Source: an uncultured Methanosarcinales archaeon
Lineage (GTDB): Archaea; Nanobdellota; Nanobdellia; Woesearchaeales; UBA10107
NCBI GenBank assembly: GCA_965231065.1
Contig: OZ246410.1
Span: 323,046-387,045 of the forward strand
Direction: 5' to 3'
DNA length: 64,000 bases
Both the position numbers and the translations under genes were made by a program. Below the pieces are notes generated by a model that was given only the letters and a program-made list of their open reading frames with translations, was not told where the DNA came from and made no database searches. Positions 6,676-42,716 of the stretch are shown in pieces. Every line of letters starts with the position of its first letter. Within the stretch, counting starts at the first letter, position 1.

Positions 6676-6688
6676 AGTTTCAACCCTC

Positions 6689-10894: not shown

Positions 10895-11655
10895 TTTCGT
10901 TGTATCAGTTCAAACTCCTTACATTTAGTGTATAATAACCAGCGATACCAAATATCATTCGCGGTCAGCACCAGGCCATAGAACCCGTAGATCCACGCGC
11001 CTTTGATCATGCGTATCAGGAAGTAGCCAATGGATGTAGCGAGCATCTTCCAAAAAGGATAGTGATCTCCCCGCTGAACCATGAGCTTCGCATCATTGGT
11101 CGTATAGTTGTTTGTCTTGACAAACAGATGATGCAGTCCCCGATATCCACCGAAATGGATGATATCCTTTTTTAATCTTCCTATCTCTCCTTTGATCTCG
11201 AGGAATCCATGGACTCCTTGTAGATTGAAGCGTGCCTTATTCTTCTTAAATAGACGGAGCTGATAATCAGGATACCATCCGCCAAAACGGAGCCATGTAT
11301 TGTTCACGAAGTTCTTGCGCGGTATCTTGAATGCGTTATTGTTTGTATCTTTTGAAAGTAATGTGTCTATCTCTTGCTTTAATTCTTTAGATACCTCTTC
11401 ATCCGCATCCAGATATAATATCCATTCAGATGTGCATTTATCAGTACCGATCTGCTTGTTCTCATTAAGATTCAGCTTATTCGATACGGTAAAGACCTTG
11501 TTGGTGTATTTCTTTGCGATATGTTTTGTCCTATCGGTGCTTGCGGCATCAATCACAATTATCTCATCAGCCCAGCCTTTCACACTTTTCAGTGTTCTTT
11601 CGATGTAGTCTTCTTCATTATGTGCCAGAATACTGACTGAGATATTCGGCCTCAT
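10891..11655 (-). CDS. GT2-family glycosyltransferase (GT-A fold)
   Basis: ISVSILAHNEE...VIDAASTD...YLDADEE; 254 aa; ATGA overlap with flanking genes. Confidence 0.75.
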   Translation of the reverse strand: MRPNISVSILAHNEEDYIERTLKSVKGWADEIIVIDAASTDRTKHIAKKYTNKVFTVSNKLNLNENKQIGTDKCTSEWILYLDADEEVSKELKQEIDTLLSKDTNNNAFKIPRKNFVNNTWLRFGGWYPDYQLRLFKKNKARFNLQGVHGFLEIKGEIGRLKKDIIHFGGYRGLHHLFVKTNNYTTNDAKLMVQRGDHYPFWKMLATSIGYFLIRMIKGAWIYGFYGLVLTANDIWYRWLLYTKCKEFELIQRK

Positions 11656-14219: not shown

Positions 14220-15272
14220 TTATAACAGGCTTTTAACGGCTTTTTCGACTTCCTGGACAGATATGCGCTTCATCCACTTGCCTTTTTTGGAAGCAGATGG
14301 CTGCTTGCCGAACAATTCGTACTCTTCTTCATAGATGTCTTGGTCATGCCAGATCGCGATGCTCTCATCATGCAGCGGCGCTTTTCGTTTTGGATTCGTC
14401 GGTCCGAATAAACTGACGATCTTTTTATTGACCGCTGATGCGATATGCATCGGGCCTGAGTCATGCGTCACGATGACTGCACATCTCTTCATAATCGCTG
14501 CTGATTGCTTGATGTTCGCCGCTCCAGCACTATTGATCACATTCTTGTTCTTGATGAATCGTATGACATCCTCATTCAATTGTCTATCATTCGGTCCGCC
14601 GATCAAGATGATCTTGTGATTGTTTGATAATCTTTGGATCAATTCAATGTATTTCTCTGTCTGGAATTTTCTGATAGCGCCTGATTCTCCGGGATTTTCT
14701 CCGCCGCCGCCGAGAAGCATACCGATTACTTTTCCAGTGAGTTTATTTTTCCTGAAAAATGAATCTGCGAACGAAAGATCTTTCTTTGGCACTGTAAGAT
14801 CAAGCTGTGTATCTTTCGTATCTGGTTTTATGCTGATTGCTTCAAGCAATGATAAGTAATAAATGATTTCATGCTGTGCCTGTTGATATATGATCGAATC
14901 AGTATGGTATTTTCCCTCTCTATTTCTATTGAAGCCTATCCTGGTTGGTATATTGCATAATTTCATGAACAAACCAAAGATCCAGTGCTTATCTAAGATG
15001 AAGGCAGCATCGAATTTTTCTTTTTTGATCTTATTTCGCAGCGAAAGGACCTTGAATATATTTTTCCTGAAAAACATATTCTGGTCGAATCGTTCGATAC
15101 GGTTGATATTCTTATTTCCCTCGAGAACTGATGCGGAATAGGTGCCGACATAATAGACAATCTGGGATTTCGGAAACTGTTTTCGTAACTGTCTGACAAA
15201 TGGCGTCGTCATGAGTACATCACCGATGGCGCCAGTCTTGAATATGAGGATCTTTCGTGGATTTTCCATCAA
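14220..15272 (-). CDS. GT9-family glycosyltransferase (heptosyltransferase homolog)
   Basis: KILIFKTGAIGDVLMTTPFVRQLRKQFPKSQIVYYV and THDSGPMHIA. Confidence 0.75.
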   Translation of the reverse strand: MMENPRKILIFKTGAIGDVLMTTPFVRQLRKQFPKSQIVYYVGTYSASVLEGNKNINRIERFDQNMFFRKNIFKVLSLRNKIKKEKFDAAFILDKHWIFGLFMKLCNIPTRIGFNRNREGKYHTDSIIYQQAQHEIIYYLSLLEAISIKPDTKDTQLDLTVPKKDLSFADSFFRKNKLTGKVIGMLLGGGGENPGESGAIRKFQTEKYIELIQRLSNNHKIILIGGPNDRQLNEDVIRFIKNKNVINSAGAANIKQSAAIMKRCAVIVTHDSGPMHIASAVNKKIVSLFGPTNPKRKAPLHDESIAIWHDQDIYEEEYELFGKQPSASKKGKWMKRISVQEVEKAVKSLL

Positions 15273-16387
15273 CCTTCCCTCTTCAATTTCTCGATTGTTT
15301 GTAATACATCATCCACCGAGATCGCATTCATGCATTCTCGCTGCTCTTTCGTGAGGTGTTTCGGCACCAGTTCCCGTTTTGTATTATCAAGGAAGGGACA
15401 GCCATGGACCGGTTTCCATAAGGAAATATTCCCTTTTCCATACGGTCCCCATAATACAGGTGTATTCGGACCGAACAATCCTATTGTCTTTGTCCCCATC
15501 GCCGCAGACACATGCATCAGTCCTGAATCATTGCTGATGACGATGTCGCAGTTCCGAATCAGTTCAGCTGACTGCGGTAAGGTAAATAGGCCAGCGGCAT
15601 CGATGCATTCATGGTTCATTCCCTGCTGTATCTTCTCGACAACTCTTCTGTTGCTTTTCGAATCGATGAGTATGACTTTCGTATGATGGCGTTCCAATAA
15701 GGTATCGGCAAGCTCCGCGAATCGTTCGATCGGCCACATCCTATACTTGACAGACTCAGCGACGCCCGGAGCGATACCGACGACGAGATTATTTTTTGTG
15801 ACTTTCTTTTCCTTGAGATAGTGCGCAACTATGTTTTTATCTTTTTGTGAAATAGAAAGCGGCATCAACGCATCGACATCGTACGTACTTCCCACTTTTC
15901 TCGCAAAATCAAGATAATTCTGAACCATGTGCTGTTTCTTGCTGAAATGGACTGTTTCATGATATGTATTCTTCCGTATGCCATGATCAAAACCGATCCT
16001 GAACTTAGAAGTAAGGAATGCGATTGCTGCAGAAATGCTCAGTGCCGGTTCTGCGTCGATGCAGAGATCATAGCTTCGGAACCGTTTCAGTACATTAAAC
16101 AAACCAAAGTCAATGATCTGATGTACGTCGTGCTGTCCTTCAAATACGACTCTGTTTCTCGGATGCGCGAGCACATCGATCTGAGCAAGAGGGAATTCTC
16201 GTTTCAGCGCTTTGATCGTCGGTAACAATACGATTGAATCTCCCAGCGCCCAGAACTTGATGACAAGGATCTTTTTGATCTTATTCTTCTTGAATGCTGT
16301 CTTTTTCTTTAATTTTCCGAATACATAATCAAGCGGACTAAAGAAATACGCATCTACGATCCGCTGTAGCTGGATTGCAAGGGACAT
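15269..16387 (-). CDS. GT9-family glycosyltransferase (heptosyltransferase homolog)
   Basis: KILVIKFWALGDSIVLLPTIKALKREFPLAQIDVLA and SNDSGLMHVS. Confidence 0.75.
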   Translation of the reverse strand: MSLAIQLQRIVDAYFFSPLDYVFGKLKKKTAFKKNKIKKILVIKFWALGDSIVLLPTIKALKREFPLAQIDVLAHPRNRVVFEGQHDVHQIIDFGLFNVLKRFRSYDLCIDAEPALSISAAIAFLTSKFRIGFDHGIRKNTYHETVHFSKKQHMVQNYLDFARKVGSTYDVDALMPLSISQKDKNIVAHYLKEKKVTKNNLVVGIAPGVAESVKYRMWPIERFAELADTLLERHHTKVILIDSKSNRRVVEKIQQGMNHECIDAAGLFTLPQSAELIRNCDIVISNDSGLMHVSAAMGTKTIGLFGPNTPVLWGPYGKGNISLWKPVHGCPFLDNTKRELVPKHLTKEQRECMNAISVDDVLQTIEKLKREG

Positions 16388-28640: not shown

Positions 28641-29342
28641 ATGACTAAAGCAAGCGCAACAGCACAGAAATATATTGATAATATCGTGAAGGCTGAGGTA
28701 CCTACTGAACAGGTCACTCCGAATTTCTATTCAGCATTAAGAAATTTCCATTCAAAAGGCGCAATCCCTGACGGGTATGCAGGCAATGCATATTCTAATC
28801 GGGATTTAGTTGAAACTGATTTGAAGAAAGGTAAGAAATTGAAACGAGAACACCTCGGAAAGACAGTTGAAGTTCTTGAAGCACTTGTTAAAGAAGGAGC
28901 TAATTTTGGTAATCTCGAAACAGACGATTCATACTTAGAGAAAATAAACAAAGAATCACGATATATTTTCATGCCACAGAAGAATTACAAATCAATGATT
29001 ATCGGATTCCTTGCAGGAGCTGTAATCGGCGCAGCAGGTTCGCTTGGTATTGAAGATATGATCAATCATTACAAACACGCACCGGTTGTTGTACAACCAG
29101 TTGTTGAACCAACAGCTATTCCAACTGCTGTACCAACACAAGTGCCAGTAAAGAGTACTTACGTTAAACCAACAAAGGTTCCAACGAAGCATATCGAACA
29201 TACTGTTGTAAAACCAACACCAGTTGTTGAACAACCAAAACCAACTCCTAAGCCACAGCCAACAGCAACTCCAATTCCAGCAGCACCAGCAGGTGGAAAG
29301 AAGAAACTTGGCGGAAGCGCACAAGAGGCTCCTGATTTGTGA
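28641..29342 (+). CDS. Bitopic membrane protein with cytoplasmic N-domain, single TM helix and Pro/Thr/Val-rich extracellular tail
   Basis: 233 aa; TM helix MIIGFLAGAVIGAAGSLGI; C-terminal PT-rich low-complexity region. First gene of an operon with 11-13 nt intergenic spacers. Confidence 0.5.
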   Translation: MTKASATAQKYIDNIVKAEVPTEQVTPNFYSALRNFHSKGAIPDGYAGNAYSNRDLVETDLKKGKKLKREHLGKTVEVLEALVKEGANFGNLETDDSYLEKINKESRYIFMPQKNYKSMIIGFLAGAVIGAAGSLGIEDMINHYKHAPVVVQPVVEPTAIPTAVPTQVPVKSTYVKPTKVPTKHIEHTVVKPTPVVEQPKPTPKPQPTATPIPAAPAGGKKKLGGSAQEAPDL

Positions 29343-29353
29343 GGTAACAAACA

Positions 29354-31099
29354 ATGAAAACACTAAAAAACATAATCAACGCAATTCCAATCGTAGCAGC
29401 TACAATGCTGCCGTTTGAATTGTATGCAGCATCAATACCAGGAAGAGTATTGGCACCAGCAACCGCGACAGCCGTAGCTACACCAGTCGCTAGCCCAACA
29501 GCTATCGCAACACCGGTCGTAGAAGCGAAATCTAATACAGCAAACGCTCAGAAAGCAACAAAGGAGAAGACTTCTAAGAAAGCAAAGAAGCTCGTCTTCC
29601 CACCTGAAGCTTTGACTGATCTATCTATCCTTGTAAATGATGAACCAGTCACTGTCAAGGATCTTAACATGGCATCAGGCCAGGAAACAATCTACATCAT
29701 GGACAACAACGGCGATAAGAAAATCGGCGGACTATTGTCTGATTACGTCGCATTCTTCACAGGAAGCGAAGATCCAAACAAATATGTCTGGAGTCTTACA
29801 GAACATGATTCTGATTACAATAAATTGAGAACTCTTTCATTCTCTAACAGACAGATGAAAGGTTCAATCATAGAGGCATTGACAAGTTTCCCTCTTGACC
29901 CTCAGAAGATATACGCATTGTCTACTACTTTGAGCATCAAGAGAACCGGAAAGGATGTAAGCACTTCAAAACCACTTGTATTGAGCAGAAATCAGCTCGT
30001 AAAGATGGGTTTGCATAATGCTTTATTCGACAAGAAAAATTACATGGGAGCATCAAAAGAACTTGAGCAAGTCAATTTCGCTGATGTCCAGGGAGTTTAC
30101 TTAGTTCCATCAACCGCACTTTTATCAGGCGGAGAAAAGAGATATGTATTCAAGGTAAAACCATTCGGCGCTACAGAAGAATCAGTCATACCGGATAAAA
30201 ACATGGTACGTGATGTTGAACTTACTTCTACAGCGACCAAAAATCCTAAAGTAAAGAAAGCGCTTGAAAATCTTTTAAACAGCAATCTAGACTCGGACAG
30301 CGACGATTCAGAAGGAAAGACAGCAAACTGGATGAAATCAAAGTACGGATCTGTGAATATCGGATTGACTAATCTATCTGATCATATCACGACTACAAAA
30401 TCAGACGGCAAAGTAAGCACTGTTCAGAATGAACAGTCATACACAGGCCGAGGACTTGTTGTCAAGATGGACGGACAGTACAAGTTCAAACCAGTCATCG
30501 CACGAGGCGGACTTGAAGCAGACTTGATGAATTTCAAAGATTATGATCGAACACAAGTGAGCGGACATGCTACTCTTGATAGAAATATCAACAGCAAAAC
30601 GATGCTTGGCTTGGGAATCGCATACAGAAATGATTCTGTAGACAACTTCGCGCTTGGCGATGGTTATGTCGGCACAGCTCATGTCTCGGCGATCGGTCCA
30701 CGACTTGAAGCTGTCAATCAGCGAGGAAGTTCAAAGATGACCGGCTCATTGGAATTATTGAATGGAAATCGAGAGACTACAGTCTCAAATCCAGCATATC
30801 CAGCACTTGCATTCACAAAGACTGGCGAATACCATGCGACAAACATCGGTGTCGGTTACCAGCAAGCACTTGGTCATGGAATGGATTACTCAGTAGAAGG
30901 AATCTTCACACCATACAGCGAGAACGGCAAGGATAAATCCTATGCGCAGGCACAAGGAACATTCAGCTATGTCAAGAATGTCAAGAAGATGCCAGTAGAA
31001 GCTAAACTTTCACTTGGCTACGGACGACAGACTGGCGGATACGATTCATTCAAGAAATCAAGAACGAATATCGGTCTTGGTGTCGGAACTCGATTTTAA
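29354..31099 (+). CDS. Secreted protein with Ala/Thr/Pro linker and a C-terminal beta-barrel-like domain ending in a Phe-terminal beta-signal
   Basis: 581 aa; N-terminal hydrophobic segment; the roughly 240 C-terminal residues are Gly/Tyr/Thr-rich with alternating hydrophobic periodicity; last strand NIGLGVGTRF-COOH. Confidence 0.5.
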   Translation: MKTLKNIINAIPIVAATMLPFELYAASIPGRVLAPATATAVATPVASPTAIATPVVEAKSNTANAQKATKEKTSKKAKKLVFPPEALTDLSILVNDEPVTVKDLNMASGQETIYIMDNNGDKKIGGLLSDYVAFFTGSEDPNKYVWSLTEHDSDYNKLRTLSFSNRQMKGSIIEALTSFPLDPQKIYALSTTLSIKRTGKDVSTSKPLVLSRNQLVKMGLHNALFDKKNYMGASKELEQVNFADVQGVYLVPSTALLSGGEKRYVFKVKPFGATEESVIPDKNMVRDVELTSTATKNPKVKKALENLLNSNLDSDSDDSEGKTANWMKSKYGSVNIGLTNLSDHITTTKSDGKVSTVQNEQSYTGRGLVVKMDGQYKFKPVIARGGLEADLMNFKDYDRTQVSGHATLDRNINSKTMLGLGIAYRNDSVDNFALGDGYVGTAHVSAIGPRLEAVNQRGSSKMTGSLELLNGNRETTVSNPAYPALAFTKTGEYHATNIGVGYQQALGHGMDYSVEGIFTPYSENGKDKSYAQAQGTFSYVKNVKKMPVEAKLSLGYGRQTGGYDSFKKSRTNIGLGVGTRF

Positions 31100-31112
31100 T
31101 AGGTAAACTACA

Positions 31113-32774
31113 ATGAAAATGAAAAGCATTTTTTCAATTATTTTCGCACTGGTGTTAGTAGCTACGTCTGCATTCGCAGCTGGTTACGTAACACTGAACA
31201 ATGATGCGTCAGCATCAAAGGATCTTACTTGCACAGTAAGCCCTGCAACATCAGGATTGAGCTACATCTGGACCAAGAACGGTCAGTCAGTAAACCCTGA
31301 TGATGTTTCTGAATCACAATATGTCATTCCAGCGTCAAAGTTGACACGAGGAGACACATGGCGATGCGAAGCAGTCAAAGACCTTGGATATGACCTTGGA
31401 GAATTCTCCTACGGTTATGATTCAGCGGTCATTGTAAACGCAGCACCTCAATTTACTTCAGCACCGGTACTTTCAGTAGTTACAGGAAGCGCCTATGTAT
31501 ACGATTCAAACGCAGTCGATGGAGACGGCGATGTACTCACCTATTCATTAACGTCAGCACCAGTAGGCATGACTATCAATCCAAACAATGGTTTGATCAC
31601 ATGGACTGCAGGATCTCCAGGTCCATACGGAGTATCAATCTCTGTCACAGACGGTTCTGCTACTGATGTACAAGCATTCACAATCACAGTAACTCCAAGT
31701 GCAGGAATACTTCCTGTCACAGCGATCGCAACACCGAATTCAGGAAGCGTGCCGTTGAATGTAGCATTCAGCACAACTATTGTCGGCGGAACAGCACCAT
31801 TCACCTACGCATGGGATTTCACGAATGACGGAACATATGATTCATTGGCAGCAACGCCTACACATACATACAGTACTGCAGGCACTTACACAGCGCTTGT
31901 ATTAGTCTCAGATTCAATGGGATTAGTCGGCACTGACACAGTAACGATCACGGTCAACCCAGTCTCAGGACCAGGAGCGCCAGTCTTTACGACTACTTCA
32001 TGCCCTGACGCAAAAGTTGATGAAGCGTACACTTGCGATATCAACGCGAATGGAAATGGAACTGTGACATTTAGTTTAGTTTCAGGACCAAGCGGCATGA
32101 CTATCAATAGCACTACAGGAATTGTTTCATGGACACCATCAACTGATGGTTCTGTCTCATTCACTGTCAGAGCGACTGCAGGCATCTTGTCAACCGACAA
32201 GACATACACAATCGATGTCAATGGCAATGCTGCGAGTCAGGATGACTTGTTTGTAGACGACATCGTTTTCAGCGTAGAACAATTCTACGAAGGAGACACA
32301 CTTGATGCTCTTGTTACGTTAGAAAACCAAGGAAATGACAGATTCAATGACTTGAAAGTCACTATGTCTATCGATGATCTTGGCCTTGAAGCAAGTACTG
32401 CAAAGTTCGACTTACGAGACGGTGAGAAAAAGACAGAGGAAATCACTCTGGACTTACCAGCATCTGTAGCAGAAGGTAATTACATGGTCAAGTTTGTCAT
32501 CAGCAATGATGATGTACGATTGGTCAGATACCAACAGATCTTCATACATGGAAGTTCTGCAACAGCTAAGAATGTTCAGGTTGTTTTCAACCCAAGCATC
32601 ACAGCATCAGCACCGGTTGAGCAGAAGTCATCTATCAATTGGCTTGGAATCTGGTTCATGGTATTGCTTATCTTGATACTTTTGGCTGTCTCAGCATACT
32701 TAGTACGCAAGGCACGAGAAGGTACTCAACAGAAAGAAGTAAGCATTATTGCTTTAGATAATGAACAGATTTAA
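31113..32774 (+). CDS. Surface adhesin-like protein: signal peptide, Ig-like/cadherin-like domains, PKD domain, CARDB-like domain, C-terminal TM anchor
   Basis: Signal MKMKSIFSIIFALVLVATSAFA; PKD signature PLNVAFSTTIVGGTAPFTYAWDFTNDGTYDS; C-terminal WLGIWFMVLLILILLAVSAYLV followed by a basic tail; many N-x-S/T sequons. Confidence 0.65.
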   Translation: MKMKSIFSIIFALVLVATSAFAAGYVTLNNDASASKDLTCTVSPATSGLSYIWTKNGQSVNPDDVSESQYVIPASKLTRGDTWRCEAVKDLGYDLGEFSYGYDSAVIVNAAPQFTSAPVLSVVTGSAYVYDSNAVDGDGDVLTYSLTSAPVGMTINPNNGLITWTAGSPGPYGVSISVTDGSATDVQAFTITVTPSAGILPVTAIATPNSGSVPLNVAFSTTIVGGTAPFTYAWDFTNDGTYDSLAATPTHTYSTAGTYTALVLVSDSMGLVGTDTVTITVNPVSGPGAPVFTTTSCPDAKVDEAYTCDINANGNGTVTFSLVSGPSGMTINSTTGIVSWTPSTDGSVSFTVRATAGILSTDKTYTIDVNGNAASQDDLFVDDIVFSVEQFYEGDTLDALVTLENQGNDRFNDLKVTMSIDDLGLEASTAKFDLRDGEKKTEEITLDLPASVAEGNYMVKFVISNDDVRLVRYQQIFIHGSSATAKNVQVVFNPSITASAPVEQKSSINWLGIWFMVLLILILLAVSAYLVRKAREGTQQKEVSIIALDNEQI

Positions 32775-32832: not shown

Positions 32833-32847
32833 CGAAAGGTTTATATA
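32833..32847 (+). promoter_or_regulatory. Consensus BRE/TATA promoter (CGAAAGGTTTATATA), copy 2
   Basis: TTGGGGG element about 30 nt downstream of the TATA, a GGAGG RBS, and the ATG at 32922. Confidence 0.6.
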
Positions 32848-32921: not shown

Positions 32922-34217
32922 ATGAGTAAAACACTAAAGGCATTCGGAATTGTCGCTATGCTATTCTTAGCTCTCGTAGGAGCAGTAGCAAGCGCTAACG
33001 CTACCCTGGACCCACTAGGCGTACAGGTACTAGACGTAAAGGTAAATGGAGATTCTTTAAACGCTAATCAAGCAGTAAAGACTCAATTCGACAGAAATTC
33101 CGATCTTGATGTCAAGGTTCAGCTCCAAACAGACAGCAATACAACGGTTAATGATGTCGAAGTCACCGTATTCTTAACAGGAACGAAGGACGACATTTCA
33201 AAGACATCAACACCATTTGATGTTGCACCAAGCACTATCTATACAAAGTCATTCACATTGACTCTTCCGCAACGGGTCGATGCAGGTCAGTACCAACTAC
33301 GAGTTGTCGTCGCAAGTCCAAATAGCGACACTATCACATATGAGTACCCACTCGATGTTGCACCAGTCGATCATAGCATCGCAATCAAGGAAGTAACATT
33401 CTCGCCAAACGATAAGGTATTGGCAGGACGAGCTTTCACTGCAGTCGCACGATTGAAGAACTACGGTCAGAAGACTGAAAACGATGTCAAAGTCGTAGCA
33501 AGTATCCCAGAACTAGGCGTTTCTGAGACAGACTACATCAATCAGATTGACGCAGACGAAACAGTATCATCTGAAGAGATGCTATTACGAATCCCAGCAA
33601 ACACAAAGACTGGCGATTACAACGTTGAAGTCTCTGTCTTTTACGATGATTACGATGTGAAGACTAAATCAGTCTACACAATGCATGTAGAAGGCGATGA
33701 TAATGCTGCTCAGGCAATGGGAAGCGCATCAGGTAAGACAGTTGTTTCTGTCGGTGTCCAGGCGCAGTCAGTTGCACGAGGAGAAAACGGTGTCATCTAC
33801 CCGATCACAATAACAAACAACGCAAACACAGCGAAGACATACACATTCGCAGTATCAGGCGCAAGCGACTGGGCAACAGTCAAGATCAGCCCATCAAATG
33901 TCGTCATCCTGAATGCAGGCGAAACAAAGCAAGTGTACGTTTATGTCGCAGCTAATGAAAACGCAGCTGTCGGTGAACGAGTCTTCGGCCTTGATGTGAA
34001 AGCTGGCAACGATGTTGTCCAACAGATCCCATTGAAGGCAGATGTGCTTGAATCAGCAAAGAGCAACTGGAGCGGCTTCAAGAGCATCTTGCAGATCGCA
34101 GTCATCTTGCTGATTGTGCTTATCGTCGTCTTGGGTATTGTTATCGCATACCAGAAGAAGATGAAAGGCGCTGACAACAAAGTAGAGAATGAGCAGATCG
34201 CTCAGACGTACTACTAA
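32922..34217 (+). CDS. Cell-surface protein with repeated CARDB/Ig-like domains and C-terminal TM anchor (S-layer or sheath protein candidate)
   Basis: Signal MSKTLKAFGIVAMLFLALVGAVASA; beta-rich repeats; C-terminal ILQIAVILLIVLIVVLGIVIAY plus basic tail; strong promoter; oligo-T terminator after the stop. Confidence 0.55.
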   Translation: MSKTLKAFGIVAMLFLALVGAVASANATLDPLGVQVLDVKVNGDSLNANQAVKTQFDRNSDLDVKVQLQTDSNTTVNDVEVTVFLTGTKDDISKTSTPFDVAPSTIYTKSFTLTLPQRVDAGQYQLRVVVASPNSDTITYEYPLDVAPVDHSIAIKEVTFSPNDKVLAGRAFTAVARLKNYGQKTENDVKVVASIPELGVSETDYINQIDADETVSSEEMLLRIPANTKTGDYNVEVSVFYDDYDVKTKSVYTMHVEGDDNAAQAMGSASGKTVVSVGVQAQSVARGENGVIYPITITNNANTAKTYTFAVSGASDWATVKISPSNVVILNAGETKQVYVYVAANENAAVGERVFGLDVKAGNDVVQQIPLKADVLESAKSNWSGFKSILQIAVILLIVLIVVLGIVIAYQKKMKGADNKVENEQIAQTYY

Positions 34218-36390: not shown

Positions 36391-38067
36391 CTATCTTCTA
36401 AACTGAATATGTGTTCTTCTCTGTTTCCGCATCGAGAATAATATACTTCCAATGAACAATCCCAGGACAAAGGTCAGCAATGCACGTGTATCTATATTGA
36501 CCCCAAACGGCTTCTTCTGCGGGAAATAAATATCCAGATTGCTCAATTCAATACCGTACTCAGCATACAATAATGCAGTATATTTCTCATTCTCTTTCAA
36601 GACATCAGCATATTCATAGTAACTATATCCGAGGATCGGGAATGTCCCTTTCTCGATCTGTTTCTGGATTGCTTTTTTCGCAGCGATGATCTTATTATCC
36701 AGAAGATCATTCACATTTTCATCGGCGATGTAGATGGTGCTCAACGCAGAAGAGATCTCTGCCTCTGATTTTGATGCTTTGAACAAACAGAGAGCATAAT
36801 CGCTGGAATTCAGATATTGTTTCGCGCTTTCAAGACCTTTCTTTGATTCATCAACCAGATGCGGGATGTAGATCTGAATGTAATTGTACAATTCTTCCAC
36901 TTCGTTGATCTTCAGCATGCAGCTATCTTTCAATTTTGATTCGTCAATCTGCTTTCCGGCAAAGCCCATGAATCGCAGCCATGCTGATGCGCTGTAGGTC
37001 CGTTCAATCGCATAGCTTAGATCAGAAGTCGAATTGCGTTCACGTGCTTCCTTGATATTCTCGCGTGCATCAATGATTCGTTCCTGCACGATCATCGCCG
37101 CTTCCAAATCGCCGAGTCGTGTGAGTTTTGTATTGTTCAATCCTGTCTCGAGCTCATCCAGCTGCGCTGTTGTTTGCAGCAACTCTGTTTCAATCTCGGC
37201 ATGAGAGATATTCTGTATCTTGAATATGACCTGCCTGAAATACACATTCGCGCCAAAACATCTGCTTGCAGATGAATAGTATTTTCCTTCCTTCGATAGT
37301 TCAGCCGCTTTTTGCGATAGGTTCGATCCCTGTTCGTAGATTCCTTTTGCATCTTCTGGTATTTTCTTAACATCGATAGTATTCTGTATCGTTTCTGTTC
37401 GTTTGCAGATGTTCTCATTCAGATCTTTCATGATAGAAACATACGTTGCATCAGGAACCAATGGCGGGTATACTTTTTTAGTATTAGTGAATATTTCATA
37501 CGCTTCTTCGACATCAGAGACCTCGATGACGCTCACGTTAAGTTCTTTCCCGAATGCGATGAGTCCAGTCGCATTCTCTTCTCCTTTTGGAATCAAAATG
37601 CGTTTTAATCCGGCATCGACAGCGGCCTTTATTTTCTCTCGTGCACCGCCCACCACGCCGACAACACCGCCTGAATTGATAGTGCCGGTGATCACGGTGT
37701 AGGAATCGATTTTTTTATTCTCTAACGAAGCGATCGTCAGTAGTGTGATGGCAGCTCCTGCGCTTGGGCCAGCGACAATCGGAGAATTCGTCTGTAATGA
37801 ATAGATAAAATCCTTGTTCAAACAATAGTTTTCAGAGATCTTGCAGGCGATCGTCTTACCGATGCGCAGCGATATCTGCGTATCAATCTGCGATAATGGA
37901 TACGTCTCGATGAAGACACGTCCGGAGCCATCGATAATGTCAAGATTCAGATCAACGACCGTACCTTGTTTGTTTCCATCTGTGACCGCGAGGAGTTTAA
38001 TCGTGCCTCGTTGCGCGAATGCAGCAGGCATCAGCAATAAGAACAGCAGAAACAGATACTTCTTCAT
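36391..38067 (-). CDS. Secreted/membrane-anchored Lon-like S16 serine protease domain protein (no AAA+ module)
   Basis: Signal MKKYLFLLFLLLMPAAFA; IVAGPSAGAAITL (Lon catalytic Ser) and GGAREKIKAAVDAGLKRILIPKGEE (catalytic Lys region); long helical middle region; C-terminal TM plus basic tail. Confidence 0.65.
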   Translation of the reverse strand: MKKYLFLLFLLLMPAAFAQRGTIKLLAVTDGNKQGTVVDLNLDIIDGSGRVFIETYPLSQIDTQISLRIGKTIACKISENYCLNKDFIYSLQTNSPIVAGPSAGAAITLLTIASLENKKIDSYTVITGTINSGGVVGVVGGAREKIKAAVDAGLKRILIPKGEENATGLIAFGKELNVSVIEVSDVEEAYEIFTNTKKVYPPLVPDATYVSIMKDLNENICKRTETIQNTIDVKKIPEDAKGIYEQGSNLSQKAAELSKEGKYYSSASRCFGANVYFRQVIFKIQNISHAEIETELLQTTAQLDELETGLNNTKLTRLGDLEAAMIVQERIIDARENIKEARERNSTSDLSYAIERTYSASAWLRFMGFAGKQIDESKLKDSCMLKINEVEELYNYIQIYIPHLVDESKKGLESAKQYLNSSDYALCLFKASKSEAEISSALSTIYIADENVNDLLDNKIIAAKKAIQKQIEKGTFPILGYSYYEYADVLKENEKYTALLYAEYGIELSNLDIYFPQKKPFGVNIDTRALLTFVLGLFIGSILFSMRKQRRTHIQFRR

Positions 38068-39155
38068 AGTTTGCGGTGGACGTCAAACTCTCTCATCTTT
38101 CTTCGATGTTTGAGATATCGTCGTAATCCATGTTTATCGTTCTGATATTCATATATTTTGAATAGAACAAATAGTGCAACCAGTATTCCAAACGTGATCC
38201 ATGCCCATTTTGCGGTCTTCGACAGTGGCTTACTCTCTTTTGGAGGAGCAGGATTGGTTTCCGTTGCTGTTGTACCCGCATCTGAAGCGAGCAATTGATC
38301 CCGTTTCAGGTTATAATCAGTTTTTGGTCCTTCATTGCCTGCGAGATCGACTGCCGTAACTGAGAATAAGCTGTCATCAGTGGATACCTCCCAGAACAAC
38401 TGCTGGGTCGAAGCGATACTCTTGATCGTGTTATAGATATTATAATGATCAATGCCATTGTTGTCTGTCGCCGCAGCCCATGTAATTCTTGCTTTGTCAT
38501 CGATTGATTCATATTTGAGAGTGCTGACTGCGCTTGGTGGAGTCACATCGTATACGAATTCGATCTGGAAGAATCCCTGCATCAAATTATCCTGTGCATC
38601 ACTGCACTTTACAAAGACTCTGTTCAATCCTTCGGCAAATGGTAACTCGATAGAATGATTTTGTTGGAGGATCGCTTCTGTGGCAACAAGACTTGTTTCG
38701 CTGAAGCCTGCTTTACAGCTCGCTGGTTCATCAGTAGTAAACATGAGAACTTTTGAATTTGAATATATCTTTGATGGACTGTTGACTACTGGTGCTTTTG
38801 AATCGCCGCCATACGTCTTGCTTGCTTCTGAAGAAAGGTTGACCAGATCATACACGATGAGCTTGAAGGTATGCTGCAGACCATCATCTTTTGTCTGGTA
38901 CAGACTGATCTGGTGCGTTCCGGTGAGCTGTTCCCGATGGAGCAATTCGCTGTCCTGATATACTTCAAGATGATCAAGACCCTGATCGCTTTCTATCTCC
39001 CAACTTACCTGCACTTGATCGGGAAATGTTCGTTTCACATCGAATGAGGTGATCTGCGGAGAAAGTGCGTATGCAATCATGACTGAACATACTAGTATGC
39101 CAAGAATACCTGCTAATTTACGTTTGTCCATGGGGTATATGATGAATTCCGTCAC
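38064..39155 (-). CDS. Surface protein with fibronectin-III/Ig-like domains, N-terminal signal-anchor and C-terminal TM helix
   Basis: 363 aa; beta-rich repeats; C-terminal WAWITFGILVALFVLFKIY plus basic tail. Confidence 0.5.
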   Translation of the reverse strand: MTEFIIYPMDKRKLAGILGILVCSVMIAYALSPQITSFDVKRTFPDQVQVSWEIESDQGLDHLEVYQDSELLHREQLTGTHQISLYQTKDDGLQHTFKLIVYDLVNLSSEASKTYGGDSKAPVVNSPSKIYSNSKVLMFTTDEPASCKAGFSETSLVATEAILQQNHSIELPFAEGLNRVFVKCSDAQDNLMQGFFQIEFVYDVTPPSAVSTLKYESIDDKARITWAAATDNNGIDHYNIYNTIKSIASTQQLFWEVSTDDSLFSVTAVDLAGNEGPKTDYNLKRDQLLASDAGTTATETNPAPPKESKPLSKTAKWAWITFGILVALFVLFKIYEYQNDKHGLRRYLKHRRKMREFDVHRKL

Positions 39156-39176: not shown

Positions 39177-39974
39177 CTATAAGAGCGGTTTTATGAGTAC
39201 AGGGGTGACAAACACCTCTATTAGCGCAGCGATGATGATGACTAGGATCGATAGGATGAGCAGGACTGTTCCGTCTTTGATGACGTTCTGGAATGTGTTG
39301 GTGCCGACTTTCTCTTTAAAGAATCCTTTTGAGATGACTCCGCCAGCAAGTGCTGCAAGCAAAAAACCAAATACTTCGGGAATGATGTGGATAGAAAGGA
39401 TCGCGGTGCTCAGTACCTTCTGCTGTGTGATTAATTGTGTCGCTTTCAGTATGAATGTCGCGAAGACGCTTGCGTTCAGTACGATCAAGAATAAAGCACC
39501 GATGCCGTAGAATAGAGACAAGATGAATGCGATCACAACAATGGATATGTTGTTGAAGATGATGCTGAATAACTGCGGAACTTTCTGAGTCGGTATCTTG
39601 ATGAAATTACCGACCAATCCTTGCTTCTCCAATATTGAATTTTGATATGAAACAGAGTCAGGAACATACGATCCCATAAAGATATAACTGAAGAAGATGC
39701 CGATGAACAGACACAGGAATATGTCCATGAGCACCGCATGGTTCCGAAAGAAATGGTACAATCCTCTTTTTCGTTCCATCTTCTCTCCGATGGTCACTAG
39801 TTTCGCAGTCGAAGGAATGAGCAATAAGGTGATGAAGAAGACCATGGAAAATGAAACGCTGTTCGGGAAGAACATCTGGGCCGTGCCATAACTCAATAAT
39901 ACGTAGATGGCTCCTAAGAGAAATGAATATATCTTCCGTTTTCCGATGCTGCTGAGAAACTGTTCAAATCCCAT
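39177..39974 (-). CDS. Polytopic membrane protein (6-7 TM; SpoIIM/DUF95-like?)
   Basis: 265 aa, hydrophobic throughout. Confidence 0.35.
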   Translation of the reverse strand: MGFEQFLSSIGKRKIYSFLLGAIYVLLSYGTAQMFFPNSVSFSMVFFITLLLIPSTAKLVTIGEKMERKRGLYHFFRNHAVLMDIFLCLFIGIFFSYIFMGSYVPDSVSYQNSILEKQGLVGNFIKIPTQKVPQLFSIIFNNISIVVIAFILSLFYGIGALFLIVLNASVFATFILKATQLITQQKVLSTAILSIHIIPEVFGFLLAALAGGVISKGFFKEKVGTNTFQNVIKDGTVLLILSILVIIIAALIEVFVTPVLIKPLL

Positions 39975-42110
39975 TTAATGATGACCGAATCTCTTGAAGT
40001 AGCGATCCCAGTCATCCTCTCCTTTTCTTTTCCAACCGAGGACGTAGAGTGTTGCACCAATTAATACAAGTGCAAGTAATGCTGTCTTATTGATTCCTTT
40101 CGCATAGTCTATCAAGACGGCGAAACCAGTACCGATGCCGAACGCCTGTTCACCAGTCACTATATTATTTGCTGCTGGTGTTTCATTCGCTTGATTGTTT
40201 GAAGCTAATTGTGAAAGATCTTTGTTGACATTCGCAGTATCTATGACTGTCGGCGCTGCAGGAGTTGGGAGGATTATTCCGCCGCCGGATGAACTAAATG
40301 TTCTCTTCTTTCCGCCACCTGTATTTCCATTACCGTTGCCGCCACCATTATTTGGTGGTGGATTGGAACATTGGGCTGTGTCGATTGTGCACGTAGTAGT
40401 ACACGTGACTGTTCCTTGGCTGAATCCATAATTAGAGCAGATATCGGTTGTGGATCCGTCACACTGCTCTCCGGCATCGACAATGTTGTCACCGCAGTAG
40501 GAACCAACACTGATCTGTGCAGTTGCGGTGAACGTATCAGCGCCATTTGTGTATGTCGCAATGATTGTATACTGTCCGTTTGCCTGTGGTATTCCGAGTA
40601 ATGTATCGAATGTTCCTGTCTGATTATTTATTACCAAGGCCTCATTCTGCAGGATTTCTATCACATCGATCGTTCCGCTCGGTATGTTGCCGTCATCGGT
40701 ACTGATTGTTCCTGTAAGTGCTAGTGATATATTATTATTTGCAACGCTTGCATCTGTATTTGTCTGATTCAAGCTCATGGAGAGTGTGAAGGTCTTTCTG
40801 ACTCTGAACTGTGCTGATTGTGATGTTGACTGTCCAAGATTATCAGCTGCGGTTACCTGGACTGTATATGTTCCCGTCGTCGTCGCTGTTGTCGTTGGGA
40901 GTATTATCTGCCCGTTCGTTATTGTTGCTGGTATCGCATTATTGTTCGGATCAGTGATTGTTGCGGTGACTGAATTTTGGTCAACACCGGAGCCAGTATC
41001 TGCGATGACTGCATCGATGATGACATTATTTCCTCTGTCTGTCACATTCGGAGCAGTCAGGGTGATCGTCGGTGCTTGGTTGTCGATAGTGAATGTTTGT
41101 GTTCCTGAACTTCCTTGAAGATTGACTTCGTCAGTACAGTCGACATTCCATGTATATTGTCCATCAGTAACCGGAATCGTGTACGAATTACTTACTCCTG
41201 TCGTTACTATCGCATTTGCATTACCATTAGCCGTTACCATGCAATTCAATTGCGTCGCATAATTATCCTGCGCATCGAACTGTAAATTTACATTTGTCGC
41301 GGTAAGGAATTGATTGTTTGTCGGTGAAGTTAATGTGACTGTCGGCGCTGTCCTGTCAATTATGGTAGTCAGGTTAGCTGTTGCTGCGGTATTTCCGCCA
41401 TTATCGGATGCATCGAAGAAGAAGCAGACATCCCCTTCTGGCCATGCGGTAAGATCTTGAGTGCTTGAACAGATGCCATTTGAACATGTGTTCGCGAATG
41501 TATTGTAGACTGTACTTGATGTATTTGTTGTGTTGTCGAATATCAGATCGCAGTTCGAGAGATGCAGATTTGAACCAGCGATGCCTGTCTGTGCATCATT
41601 TGCAGCTGCTGAGAATAATTCATTACCTCCTGAGATGTATGGTCCTGGTGTTGTATTGGTTATGACTGGCGGGAGATTGTCATTCAACACCTGTAGTTGT
41701 ATTTGATTCGCATTGGAATCACCATTTACATCTGTTGTGGTGATGATCCAGTTATAGGTTGTATCTTGATTTACATTATTTGCCAATGCCGAGAATCCGA
41801 AATTCTGGTTGCCCCAATTGCTGATCGCATTAGTCGTTGTCGAGAATGTGATTGAATTATTATTTGTAACAGACCATCCTAATAATGCAGTAATGCTGTT
41901 GACGCTGAAGCCGCTGTTTTGCACATCGACTTGGTTGATCGCTGATGTGCTGGTTATGTCATTTGCAACGTTTAACCCAATATTGACGGGGTTTGTCTCA
42001 TAGATGGGGGCGTAATTAGTTGTGACCGTTGCGGTGTGGACCGCAAAGACAGAAGTGAGTAATGATAAGAATACAATTAAGTCTATAAGTCCTCTCTTCA
42101 CTGGGGTCAT
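39975..42110 (-). CDS. Large secreted adhesin-like protein with multiple Ig-like repeats, Cys-rich module, Gly/Asn low-complexity stalk and C-terminal TM anchor
   Basis: 711 aa; signal LIDLIVFLSLLTSVFA; SYCGDNIVDAGEQCDGSTTDICSNYG...CTTTCTIDTAQC; NGGGNGNGNTGGG; C-terminal ALLALVLIGATLYVLGWKRKG. Confidence 0.55.
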   Translation of the reverse strand: MTPVKRGLIDLIVFLSLLTSVFAVHTATVTTNYAPIYETNPVNIGLNVANDITSTSAINQVDVQNSGFSVNSITALLGWSVTNNNSITFSTTTNAISNWGNQNFGFSALANNVNQDTTYNWIITTTDVNGDSNANQIQLQVLNDNLPPVITNTTPGPYISGGNELFSAAANDAQTGIAGSNLHLSNCDLIFDNTTNTSSTVYNTFANTCSNGICSSTQDLTAWPEGDVCFFFDASDNGGNTAATANLTTIIDRTAPTVTLTSPTNNQFLTATNVNLQFDAQDNYATQLNCMVTANGNANAIVTTGVSNSYTIPVTDGQYTWNVDCTDEVNLQGSSGTQTFTIDNQAPTITLTAPNVTDRGNNVIIDAVIADTGSGVDQNSVTATITDPNNNAIPATITNGQIILPTTTATTTGTYTVQVTAADNLGQSTSQSAQFRVRKTFTLSMSLNQTNTDASVANNNISLALTGTISTDDGNIPSGTIDVIEILQNEALVINNQTGTFDTLLGIPQANGQYTIIATYTNGADTFTATAQISVGSYCGDNIVDAGEQCDGSTTDICSNYGFSQGTVTCTTTCTIDTAQCSNPPPNNGGGNGNGNTGGGKKRTFSSSGGGIILPTPAAPTVIDTANVNKDLSQLASNNQANETPAANNIVTGEQAFGIGTGFAVLIDYAKGINKTALLALVLIGATLYVLGWKRKGEDDWDRYFKRFGHH

Positions 42111-42152: not shown

Positions 42153-42716
42153 TTATTTCGCCTGTATCGTTATTTTGTTTATAATTACGTCAGTCACTGG
42201 TTGGTCATCAGCATTTGTCTTTGTGTTGCTGATCTTCTCGACAAGATCATATCCTTCGATGACTTTGCCGAAAACCGGATGCTTACCGTTCAAGAAAAAG
42301 TTATTCGCTACGTTGATGAAGAATTGTGAACCGCCTGTGTCCGGTCCGGAATTTGCCATTGCGATTGTACCTGGGTCATTCTTTAATCCTGCTCCAAACT
42401 CATCTTTGATATGATATCCAGGACCGCCAGTGCCCCATCGTGATCTTAATGAAAGATCCTTTGATAATGGATCTCCGCCTTGGATCATGAACTTAGCTAT
42501 TATTCTGTGAAATCTCGTTCCGTCATAGAAACCTGACTGCGCTAATTTGATGAAATTAGCAGTGGTAATTGGTGCTTTGTCTTCAAACAATTCAATCTTG
42601 AATGTTCCTTGATTTGTTTCAAATACTGCTATTCTGTTCATAGTCTTTGATGACATGTTCACATATAAAAGGATTGTGATGAGGACTACTATTCCTATTA
42701 TTATGTTTTTCTTCAT
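42153..42716 (-). CDS. ppiB: Cyclophilin-type peptidyl-prolyl cis-trans isomerase with N-terminal membrane anchor/signal
   Basis: FHRIIAKFMIQGGDP cyclophilin motif; N-terminal IIIGIVVLITILLYV. Confidence 0.8.
   Translation of the reverse strand: MKKNIIIGIVVLITILLYVNMSSKTMNRIAVFETNQGTFKIELFEDKAPITTANFIKLAQSGFYDGTRFHRIIAKFMIQGGDPLSKDLSLRSRWGTGGPGYHIKDEFGAGLKNDPGTIAMANSGPDTGGSQFFINVANNFFLNGKHPVFGKVIEGYDLVEKISNTKTNADDQPVTDVIINKITIQAK

What the first reader, a model, noticed from the sequence alone, without database searches (positions are those of the whole stretch)
28641..32774. A candidate outer-membrane beta-barrel protein in an archaeon, co-transcribed with a PT-rich TM protein and a PKD/CARDB adhesin
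ORF 29354-31099 (581 aa) has an N-terminal hydrophobic/secretory segment, an Ala/Thr/Pro linker, and a roughly 240-aa C-terminal region rich in Gly, Tyr and Thr with alternating hydrophobic residues. It terminates -N-I-G-L-G-V-G-T-R-F-COOH. Hydrophobic residues sit at positions 0, -2, -4, -6 and -8 with a C-terminal Phe. That is the classic beta-signal of bacterial and mitochondrial outer-membrane beta-barrels. Earlier strands look similar, for example AKLSLGYGRQTGGYDSF. The same genome encodes LPS-core-type GT9 heptosyltransferases and a heptose pathway. It also has a secreted Lon-like protease, a signal-anchored cyclophilin and many anchored adhesins, which fits a compartment outside the cytoplasmic membrane. 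Together these raise the possibility of a diderm-like envelope, as in Ignicoccus or Altiarchaeota, or at least of an undescribed barrel-forming surface component. The three genes are separated by only 11-13 nt and sit behind one consensus promoter.
Basis: partly seen in the sequence, partly recalled or inferred. Interest (0 to 1): 0.7.

Follow-up and report, generated by a model that had tools for sequence, protein, structure and literature searches.

The report
Bacterial-type beta-barrel protein in an archaeon
A tiny symbiotic archaeon (Woesearchaeota) encodes a secreted protein whose tail is confidently predicted to fold like the 12-stranded pore proteins of bacterial outer membranes, a protein class not known from archaea, so it points to an unrecognised lipid-embedded surface or host-contact device.

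Summary
ORF 29354-31099 (581 aa) is real and ends NIGLGVGTRF. It is the middle gene of a three-gene operon behind one archaeal BRE/TATA promoter.

Every strand has an uncharged hydrophobic stripe at the end nearest the termini, and the stripe is conserved in the homologues.

The family is tiny: 6 proteins among 1.84 billion representatives. It has no Pfam, NCBIfam or PDB sequence match. All six members sit in one conserved synteny (AglB / TM protein with Pro-Thr tail / barrel / Ig-like adhesin / S-layer-like protein), and two of the loci carry Woesearchaeota labels.

The window is archaeal (aIF5A, archaeal TopA, Nre, AglB).

The diderm inference is not shown. No Omp85 or Lpt genes lie in the window, the neighbouring envelope proteins use C-terminal TM helices (monoderm style), and the GT9/heptose genes sit in a glycosylation cluster next to AglB.

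Barrel fold: likely. Which membrane it sits in: open (host membrane, own outer layer, or own membrane).

The parts
28556..28569 (+). Archaeal BRE/TATA-like promoter element GAAAGGTTTATATA of the three-gene operon
   Evidence: Exact 14-mer about 72 nt upstream of the ATG at 28641. The only other exact copy is at 32834. There were 7 matches at up to 2 mismatches against 1.07 expected. No copy lies between the three genes.
28641..29342 (+). Gene 1: bitopic membrane protein (233 aa). It has a cytoplasmic N-domain, one TM helix (about residues 117-137) and a roughly 95-aa extracellular Pro/Thr/Val-rich tail ending KKKLGGSAQEAPDL
   Evidence: only a weak PT-repeat hit. A gene with the same layout (TM helix plus Pro-rich or Cys-rich tail) precedes the barrel gene in L002/L008 and L011, and Pro-rich C-terminal fragments precede it in L006 and L013. 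Sequence similarity to these is not significant.
29354..29431 (+). Gene 2, residues 1-26: Sec-type signal peptide (proposed cleavage LYA|AS)
   Evidence: Direct reading. All five homologues have classical n-h-c signal peptides with AxA-like sites. No predictor was run.
29432..29590 (+). Gene 2, residues 27-79: Ala/Thr/Pro-rich then Lys-rich low-complexity spacer
   Evidence: pLDDT below 35, predicted disordered.
29591..30280 (+). Gene 2, residues 80-309: fast-evolving mixed alpha/beta N-terminal ('passenger-like') domain ending in helix 298-309
   Evidence: AF2 pLDDT 45-85. It aligns clearly in four of the five homologues, poorly in P0005. No Pfam, NCBIfam or PDB sequence match.
30281..30343 (+). 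Gene 2, residues 310-330: acidic Asp/Ser-rich linker between the helix and the barrel
   Evidence: pLDDT below 50 for residues 310-325.
30344..31099 (+). Gene 2, residues 331-581 plus stop: predicted 12-stranded transmembrane beta-barrel ending GLGVGTRF
31113..32774 (+). Gene 3: signal peptide, Ig-like He_PIG/PKD/CARDB adhesin, C-terminal TM helix (553 aa)
   Evidence: Pfam He_PIG 6e-24, PKD_4 2e-12, CARDB 3.6e-4 (21.1 bits, under Pfam's 22.7-bit cut-off). It is 37% identical to the gene after the barrel gene in L002 and 34-42% to that in L007. A He_PIG/PKD gene holds the same position in L006 and L013.
32834..32847 (+). Second exact copy of the promoter element, serving the S-layer-like gene
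32922..34217 (+). Conserved neighbour: S-layer-like protein (NPCBM_assoc x3, FixG_C Ig-like domain, C-terminal TM helix; 431 aa)
   Evidence: Pfam. It is 64-65% identical to the syntenic genes in L006 and L002.
25708..28449 (-). Conserved divergent neighbour: AglB/STT3 oligosaccharyltransferase (913 aa)
   Evidence: Pfam STT3 1.5e-31. It is 55% identical to the syntenic gene in L002. The same arrangement occurs in L008-L011.

Best explanation
Gene 29354-31099 encodes a Sec-exported, two-domain envelope protein of a Woesearchaeote (DPANN archaeon).

After the signal peptide and a disordered Ala/Thr/Pro spacer comes a fast-evolving alpha/beta N-domain, then a short helix and an acidic linker. 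The last 250 residues fold into a 12-stranded transmembrane beta-barrel of the bacterial outer-membrane class, the size class of NanC/KdgM and of autotransporter translocators.

The barrel's uncharged hydrophobic belt means it sits in a lipid bilayer. It serves as the protein's membrane anchor and possibly as a narrow pore, and it holds the N-domain at the cell surface.

It is made together with gene 1 and gene 3. Gene 1 is a cytoplasmic-membrane protein whose long Pro/Thr-rich tail could span the space outside the membrane, like the spacer of TonB. Gene 3 is an Ig-like adhesin. Together they form a conserved surface and cell-contact module.

Shown here: the ORFs, the operon layout, the archaeal origin, the conserved synteny, the predicted barrel fold and the conserved amphipathic belt.

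Inferred: that the belt faces lipid, which membrane receives the barrel, and that the three gene products work together.

My estimate for the receiving bilayer is as follows:
- the membrane of the partner or host cell at the contact site: about 0.35
- an outer lipid layer of the archaeon itself: about 0.25
- the archaeon's own cytoplasmic membrane, entered from outside: about 0.15
For: Fold:
- AF2 with the 6-sequence alignment gives 12 strands over residues 331-580 at pLDDT about 75-93. The single-sequence run gave nothing.
- Foldseek against PDB and BFVD gives the same class.

Membrane character:
- In each of the 12 strands, the five alternating residues nearest the termini side are 83% hydrophobic and 5% charged.
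- The same face is 19% hydrophobic further out. The opposite face is 28% charged.
- The same alignment columns in the five homologues are 69-82% hydrophobic, against 32-35% on the other face.

C-terminus: four of six family members end in aromatic-R-F or G-x-G-x-R-F.

Weak sequence echoes: homologue P0003 hits PF13505 OMP_b-brl at E 0.0013. The best, non-significant, PDB profile hit is the AlgE barrel.

A real, conserved archaeal gene:
- Six family members share the same synteny.
- The P0006/P0007 protein is labelled Candidatus Woesearchaeota by NCBI.
- The window carries aIF5A, archaeal TopA, Nre and AglB.

Operon: gaps of 11 and 13 nt and one BRE/TATA element.

Fast evolution consistent with surface or host exposure: the barrel is only 22-28% identical over local stretches, against AglB 55% and the S-layer-like protein 65%, for the same genome pair.
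Against: - There is no significant sequence match to any known barrel family.
- No beta-barrel assembly machinery is known in archaea, and none is in the window.
- No second barrel candidate is in the window.
- Neighbouring envelope proteins use C-terminal TM helices, the monoderm pattern. That leaves no obvious second membrane of the cell's own.
- Insertion of a single-chain OMP-type barrel into a foreign membrane from outside has no established precedent.
- Interaction among the three gene products is inferred from the operon alone.
Confidence: 0.6

Rival explanations
1. Resident outer-membrane protein of a truly diderm Woesearchaeote. The cell has a second lipid membrane, and the barrel is one of its porins or autotransporters, assembled by an unidentified insertase that reads the conserved C-terminal G-x-G-F-R-F signal. 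Gene 1 tethers the two membranes.
For: - The OMP-type fold with a belt and a terminal Phe.
- The last strand is the most conserved block among P0002, P0005 and P0006, with 11 of the last 13 residues invariant.
- The gene lies in the core envelope cluster and carries the same exact promoter element as the S-layer-like gene.
- Double membranes have been reported for the DPANN ARMAN cells, Ignicoccus and SM1 (PMC4243693).
- GT9 and heptose genes are nearby.
Against: - No Omp85, POTRA, Lpt, Lol or lipid-A gene and no second barrel is in 64 kb.
- The adhesin, S-layer-like protein, Lon-like protease and Big-domain protein are all anchored by C-terminal TM helices, as in monoderm archaea.
- The GT9 and heptose genes are contiguous with AglB and the GT2 and GT-C genes, which suggests glycan synthesis for glycoproteins.
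- Only six family members exist among 1.84 billion representatives.
- The one characterised archaeal OM pore (Ignicoccus Ihomp1) is, to my knowledge, alpha-helical.
Confidence: 0.2
2. Soluble or lipid-carrying barrel, not a membrane protein. The hydrophobic face lines the lumen and binds host-derived lipids or other hydrophobic ligands in the space under the S-layer.
Against: - The hydrophobic stripe is confined to the termini-proximal half of every strand and is enriched in aromatic residues. That is the geometry of a membrane belt, not of a filled core.
- The opposite face is Gly-rich and 28-46% charged, as in a water-filled lumen.
Confidence: 0.12
3. No barrel at all. A Gly/Tyr-rich amphipathic beta region has been over-interpreted by AlphaFold2 from a very shallow alignment. 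The real fold would be a beta-sandwich, a beta-helix or a fibrous surface structure.
For: Only six sequences at 17-23% identity to the query over the barrel domain. The single-sequence run gave pLDDT about 25. There are no significant sequence hits to barrel families.
Against: - pLDDT reaches 93 over 250 residues, with 12 regular hairpins and connections of 2-8 residues.
- Three independent fold searches agree on one class.
- The belt periodicity is conserved in homologues that were not used to choose the positions.
- The strand number is even and both termini lie on the same side.
Confidence: 0.1

Closest known systems
KdgM/NanC family of 12-stranded outer-membrane porins (Pfam PF06178; PDB 2wjr, 4pr7, 8xua)
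   Different: No sequence similarity: 6-11% identity in the superpositions and no Pfam hit at E up to 10. To my knowledge KdgM/NanC have no 300-residue N-terminal extension. They are bacterial and live in an LPS-containing outer membrane.
Type Va autotransporters (Pfam PF03797; NalP 1uyo, EstA 3kvn, EspP, AIDA-I, BrkA, Hbp)
   Different: No PF03797 match. The N-domain is a small alpha/beta domain, not a beta-helix (EstA also departs from the beta-helix rule). The helix (298-309) is separated from strand 1 by a 20-residue low-confidence acidic linker, so a pore-filling helix is not established. No BAM or TAM is known in the host domain of life.
[not shown]
   Different: No sequence relationship. 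They have different N-terminal modules and are bacterial.
Archaeal double-membrane envelopes (Ignicoccus, ARMAN, SM1/Altiarchaeum) as reviewed in PMC4243693
   Same: They are the only setting in which an archaeal 'outer membrane protein' would be expected. ARMAN are also DPANN.
   Different: The literature I could search reports no beta-barrel membrane protein for them. To my knowledge the Ignicoccus pore protein Ihomp1 is alpha-helical. Here an S-layer-like protein with a TM anchor is encoded next door.
TonB-type periplasm-spanning tether (analogy for gene 1 only)
   Same: A membrane anchor followed by a long Pro-rich (KP/TP/VP) spacer, encoded next to a beta-barrel partner.
   Different: No TonB C-terminal domain and no Pfam match. 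It has a large cytoplasmic N-domain. The resemblance comes from memory and composition only and was not tested.

Membership tests
OMP-class transmembrane beta-barrel (structural class) | Closed antiparallel barrel with an even number of strands and both termini on one side | tested here: met
   [not shown]
OMP-class transmembrane beta-barrel (structural class) | Uncharged lipid-facing hydrophobic belt with aromatic residues and a polar lumen | tested here: met
   The belt positions are 83% hydrophobic and 5% charged, against 28% charged on the other face. The same columns in the homologues are 69-82% hydrophobic, against 32-35%. The in/out direction is inferred.
OMP-class transmembrane beta-barrel (structural class) | N-terminal Sec signal peptide | tested here: met
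   n-h-c regions with AxA-like sites in all six members, read directly from the sequences. No SignalP-type tool was available.
OMP-class transmembrane beta-barrel (structural class) | C-terminal beta-signal: last residue aromatic, with alternating hydrophobic residues | tested here: met
   The window protein ends I-G-L-G-V-G-T-R-F. P0002, P0005 and P0006 end Y-G-x-A-G-F-R-F. P0003 and P0004 have 2-4 extra residues after the aromatic position. The motif alone is not rare: AglB also fits it.
OMP-class transmembrane beta-barrel (structural class) | Located in an outer membrane and assembled by Omp85/BamA | not testable with these tools
   No Omp85 or POTRA gene is among the window ORFs scanned. 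The other roughly 710 kb of the genome could not be read.
Type Va autotransporter (PF03797) | Sequence match to the autotransporter beta-domain model | tested here: not met
   No PF03797 hit at E up to 10 for any of the six members.
Type Va autotransporter (PF03797) | C-terminal 12-stranded barrel preceded by an alpha-helical segment that fills the pore | tested here: inconclusive
   The barrel requirement is met. Helix 298-309 is predicted but is separated from strand 1 by a low-confidence linker. Its position relative to the pore could not be inspected.
Type Va autotransporter (PF03797) | Passenger domain exported to the cell surface (usually a beta-helix) | tested here: not met
   The N-domain is predicted as mixed alpha/beta at pLDDT 45-85. 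Its side of the membrane is unknown.
KdgM/NanC porins (PF06178) | Sequence match to the family model | tested here: not met
   [not shown]
OMP_b-brl (PF13505) | Score above Pfam's gathering cut-off (28.7 bits) | tested here: not met
   Only P0003 hits, at 19.4 bits and E 0.0013. The window protein has no hit.
Diderm archaeal envelope | A second lipid membrane seen by electron microscopy | not testable with these tools
   The papers I could search hold no imaging of Woesearchaeota.
Diderm archaeal envelope | Further outer-membrane proteins and lipid or protein export machinery in the genome | tested here: inconclusive
   None is in the 64-kb window, and neither domain has a paralogue there. Envelope neighbours are anchored by C-terminal TM helices.
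LPS core biosynthesis | GT9 heptosyltransferases acting with lipid A/Kdo genes | tested here: inconclusive
   Three GT9 genes, SIS, GHMP kinase and an NTP-transferase/HAD fusion are present. No Lpx or Kdo genes are in the window. The cluster is contiguous with AglB, GT2 and GT-C genes and is syntenic in the relative, which fits glycoprotein glycan synthesis.

The most novel reading that the evidence does not exclude
Woesearchaeota possess a native family of OMP-type beta-barrel membrane proteins. They would therefore have either a genuine second (outer) membrane with its own barrel-assembly route, or a porin that the symbiont plants in its host's membrane to tap it. Either case would be the first transmembrane beta-barrel system native to Archaea. 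It would overturn the view that such barrels are confined to bacteria and their organelle descendants.
Probability: 0.4. Interest if true: 0.92.

Novelty: new variant of a known kind. Interest (0 to 1): 0.72.

Why it matters
Single-chain transmembrane beta-barrels are treated as a hallmark of bacterial outer membranes and of mitochondria and plastids. To my knowledge archaea are thought to lack them, and the one characterised archaeal outer-membrane pore is helical.

A conserved, chromosomally encoded, Sec-exported OMP-type barrel in DPANN archaea has no detectable bacterial relative. That would mean one of three things:
- some archaea build a lipid layer outside their cytoplasmic membrane
- symbiotic archaea deliver a porin into partner cells
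- barrels can serve as anchors in archaeal membranes

Each possibility bears on how DPANN cells, which cannot make many metabolites or lipids, obtain them from hosts. Each also bears on the evolutionary origin of beta-barrel membrane proteins.

The finding gives a concrete, clonable target: a 250-residue domain for refolding, conductance and localisation experiments.

Tried and rejected
- AF2 on the single sequence gave pLDDT 30 and was useless.
- The word-indexed homologue search found only the query itself. It failed again with alignment A1. With A2 it returned only P0002 and P0003.
- The exhaustive HMMER search gave the five homologues.
With A3 it found only loci of the P0006/P0007 protein: 1 genome and 3 metagenome contigs.
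- The afdb50 fold library was unavailable, so archaeal AlphaFold-database relatives could not be sought.
- Sequence searches of PDB gave nothing significant with the full protein, the full profile, the N-domain profile or the C-domain profile.
- Pfam and NCBIfam gave nothing above cut-off.
- Rejected: bacterial contamination or misbinning. Archaeal markers and an archaeal promoter lie on the same contig, and the synteny with AglB holds in four loci (window, L002/L008-L010, L011).
- Rejected: recent horizontal transfer from bacteria. No bacterial homologue reached E below 1e-3 among 1.84 billion representatives.
- Rejected: a virus or mobile element. The gene sits in a collinear core envelope region of about 25 kb shared by two genomes.
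- Rejected as evidence for LPS: the GT9/heptose cluster (see the membership test).

Full report
**1. The observation**

The ORF list shows three same-strand genes at 28641-29342 (233 aa), 29354-31099 (581 aa) and 31113-32774 (553 aa). They are separated by 11 and 13 nt. Each start codon has a GAGGT/AGGT-type motif 8-10 nt upstream.

The 581-aa product starts MKTLKNIINAIPIVAATMLPFELYA|AS. An Ala/Thr/Pro-rich stretch follows at residues 34-56. The protein ends ...AKLSLGYGRQTGGYDSFKKSRTNIGLGVGTRF.

The last 251 residues hold 13.1% Gly and 6.0% Tyr, against 4.5% and 2.7% before them. Thr is not enriched.

An exact GAAAGGTTTATATA (BRE/TATA-like) lies at 28556. The only other exact copy is at 32834, before the next gene. 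There were 7 matches at up to 2 mismatches against 1.07 expected, and none lies between the three genes. The operon reading is therefore supported by sequence.

The C-terminal pattern alone is weak evidence, because AglB in the same window also ends in an alternating pattern with a terminal Trp.

**2. The organism**

The window carries these archaeal markers:
- aIF-5A above NCBIfam cut-offs
- archaeal-type topoisomerase I (TIGR01057, 761 bits)
- archaeal Nre N- and C-domains
- a 913-aa STT3/AglB

The source contig is 774 kb. The protein of one homologue cluster is labelled Candidatus Woesearchaeota archaeon by NCBI (HIH39338.1, MBS3115564.1). It also lies on a contig of Woesearchaeota isolate UBA10107. 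This is a DPANN archaeon, not a bacterial contaminant.

**3. The family**

The protein has no Pfam, NCBIfam or PDB sequence match.

An exhaustive HMMER scan of 1.84 billion representatives found only five relatives, with E from 2e-19 to 9e-4. All have classical signal peptides. Three end ...SYQQ(L/I)YGxAGFRF.

Every member sits in the same neighbourhood:
- a bitopic membrane protein with a Pro-rich or Cys-rich extracellular tail
- the barrel gene
- a He_PIG/PKD Ig-like adhesin with a C-terminal TM helix
- where the contig reaches far enough, a divergent AglB upstream (L002/L008-L010, L011) and an NPCBM_assoc S-layer-like protein downstream (L002/L008-L010, L006)

About 25 kb around the gene is collinear between the window and the UBA10107-type genome: GT9, GT2, EamA, a YfhO-like GT-C, GT2, AglB, then the operon, the S-layer-like gene, PLD, a Lon_C protease and SpoIIM.

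Between those two genomes, identities are as follows:

| Protein | Identity |
|---|---|
| AglB | 55% |
| S-layer-like protein | 65% |
| Adhesin | 37% |
| Barrel protein | 22-28% over local stretches |
| Gene 1 | not significant |

The first two operon genes therefore evolve much faster than their neighbours.

**4. The fold**

AF2 on the single sequence failed (pLDDT 30).

With the six-sequence alignment A1, the N-terminal 110 residues stay disordered. Residues 110-309 form a mixed alpha/beta domain (pLDDT 45-85) that ends in helix 298-309. Residues 310-325 are low-confidence.

Residues 331-580 form 12 antiparallel strands of 14-24 residues, joined by connections of 2-8 residues, at pLDDT about 75-93.

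The fold searches agree:
- Foldseek against PDB gives only OM barrels in its top 50, with E down to 1e-7.
- Foldseek against BFVD puts phage-borne autotransporter beta-domains and porins first.

A near-complete, low-rmsd superposition on NanC implies a closed barrel.

**5. Is it a membrane barrel?**

I oriented each strand from the end nearest the N and C termini. On one face, the first five alternating residues are 83% hydrophobic and 5% charged, with aromatics enriched. Further along the same face, hydrophobicity drops to 19%. The opposite face is Gly-rich and 28% charged.

This describes a coherent belt roughly ten residues tall around the termini-proximal half of the barrel, with a polar extension beyond it. 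Bacterial OMPs have the same geometry.

Belt positions chosen on the window protein alone are 69-82% hydrophobic and 4-9% charged in the five homologues. The other face there is 32-35% hydrophobic and 34-46% charged.

There are weak sequence echoes. P0003 hits PF13505 OMP_b-brl at 19.4 bits (E 0.0013, below the cut-off), and the best non-significant PDB profile hit is the AlgE barrel.

I could not read the model coordinates. The outward direction of the hydrophobic face is therefore inferred.

**6. Architecture and mechanism**

The domain order is signal peptide, spacer, N-domain, helix and linker, then a C-terminal 12-stranded barrel ending in Phe. This is the layout of type Va autotransporters, and loosely that of FapF and PcoB. 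There is no sequence membership in PF03797, PF06178 or PF13505, and the N-domain is not a beta-helix.

Gene 1 encodes a cytoplasmic N-domain, one TM helix and a tail of about 95 residues rich in Pro, Thr and Val, including KPTPKPQP. The homologous position in other loci has the same kind of protein. The L006 copy also carries a DTDGDGVLDADD calcium-binding-type motif.

An extended tail of that length could reach about 20-30 nm from the membrane. I therefore propose, as inference only, that it tethers or contacts the barrel protein, much as TonB reaches outer-membrane barrels.

Gene 3 is an adhesin of about five Ig-like domains anchored by a C-terminal helix.

My best reading is a surface and cell-contact module. 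Its barrel is embedded in a bilayer and holds the N-domain, and it may also act as a NanC-sized pore.

**7. Which membrane?**

This is the open point.

Against an outer membrane of the cell's own:
- No Omp85, POTRA, Lpt, Lol or lipid-A gene and no second barrel candidate is in the 64 kb.
- The S-layer-like protein, the adhesin, the Lon_C protease, a 363-aa protein and a 711-aa Big-domain protein all combine a hydrophobic signal-type N-terminus with a C-terminal TM helix. That is the standard monoderm archaeal anchoring.
- The three GT9 genes and the heptose-type genes (SIS, GHMP kinase, NTP-transferase/HAD) lie in a glycosylation cluster that runs into AglB and is syntenic in the relative. That fits glycoprotein glycans as well as it fits LPS.

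For an outer layer:
- The gene is in a core-envelope location and shares its promoter element with the S-layer-like gene.
- The last strand is strongly conserved in three members.
- Double membranes have been reported in ARMAN (also DPANN), Ignicoccus and SM1 (PMC4243693).

For insertion into a partner cell's membrane:
- DPANN archaea are generally symbiotic.
- The gene shares an operon with an adhesin.
- The barrel and the tether evolve very fast.
- Woesearchaeota and Pacearchaeota carry giant murein-transglycosylase proteins, interpreted as tools for attaching to bacterial cell walls, possibly those of hosts (PMC8204110).

Against host insertion: no precedent exists for inserting a single-chain OMP-type barrel from outside.

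My estimates:

| Claim | Probability |
|---|---|
| Barrel fold | about 0.85 |
| Lipid-embedded | about 0.7 |
| Target is the host or contact membrane | 0.35 |
| Target is the cell's own outer layer | 0.25 |
| Target is the cell's own cytoplasmic membrane | 0.15 |

**8. What is known**

Full-text searches found no report of an OMP-like barrel in Woesearchaeota or other DPANN. Two Woesearchaeota genomics papers mention no outer membrane, porin or LPS.

To my knowledge, transmembrane beta-barrels of this class are considered absent from archaea.

**9. Verdict**

The barrel interpretation is supported by prediction and by conserved sequence physics. The diderm extrapolation is unproven, and the local context somewhat disfavours it.

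This is a new, sequence-orphan family with a known fold in an unexpected domain of life. I rate it a new variant of a known kind, with high interest that depends on experimental confirmation.

Noticed in passing
window 1-25726 (minus strand), e.g. GT9 at 11652-12704, 14220-15272, 15269-16387; SIS 6040-6747; GHMP kinase 6689-7675; NTP-transferase/HAD fusion 4723-6039: A 25-kb glycosylation cluster runs into AglB. It holds three GT9 heptosyltransferase-like genes, heptose-nucleotide-type genes, seven GT2, one GT1, YfhO-like and PMT_2 GT-C enzymes, methyltransferases and a transaldolase. Part of it (GT9, GT2, EamA, YfhO-like, GT2, AglB) is syntenic in the UBA10107-type Woesearchaeote (L008). This suggests a heptose-containing glycan on envelope glycoproteins rather than LPS.
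   Followed up: partly
window 28556-28569 and 32834-32847: The identical 14-nt BRE/TATA-like element GAAAGGTTTATATA precedes both the barrel operon and the S-layer-like gene. In each case it lies about 72-75 nt before the ATG. This suggests co-regulated, probably strong, expression.
   Followed up: partly
window 36391-38067 (-), 38064-39155 (-), 39177-39974 (-), 39975-42110 (-): A block of envelope genes is conserved in the relative (L008). It comprises a protease with only the Lon_C domain, a signal peptide and a C-terminal TM helix; an unannotated 363-aa protein with a C-terminal TM helix; a SpoIIM-like membrane protein; and a 711-aa Big-domain protein. The membrane-anchored extracytoplasmic Lon-type protease is unusual.
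   Followed up: no
L006:3-299 (upstream gene fragment) and L008:8773-10041: The gene-1 counterparts in other Woesearchaeota carry extra extracellular modules before the Pro-rich tail. L006 has a thrombospondin-type-3-like DTDGDGVLDADD motif. L008 and L011 have a Cys-rich CxxC...C...C knot. C-terminal endings recur: ...SDDVEIKGL in L006 and ...SDDVELKGL in L007.
   Followed up: no
window vs L002: Evolutionary rates inside one syntenic block are strikingly unequal. The S-layer-like protein is 65% identical, AglB 55%, the adhesin 37%, the barrel protein about 22-28% locally, and the gene-1 protein is unrecognisable.
   Followed up: partly
L002:6458-8353 / L008:10001-11761: The called start of the P0006/P0007 homologue overlaps the upstream gene by 41 nt. 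A 567-aa form (P0008) starting at MKKLNLKS... is probably the true start, which would give the same short intergenic layout as in the window.
   Followed up: no
window 59013-60842 (-): The alanine-tRNA ligase is the short 609-aa form (NCBIfam PRK01584, 833 bits) rather than the roughly 900-aa archaeal form. It lies next to an archaeal Nre gene on the opposite strand.
   Followed up: no
window 42153-42716 (-): The cyclophilin has an N-terminal hydrophobic anchor (IIIGIVVLITILLYV). This implies an extracytoplasmic prolyl isomerase, a folding helper outside the membrane that could serve secreted proteins such as the barrel protein.
   Followed up: no
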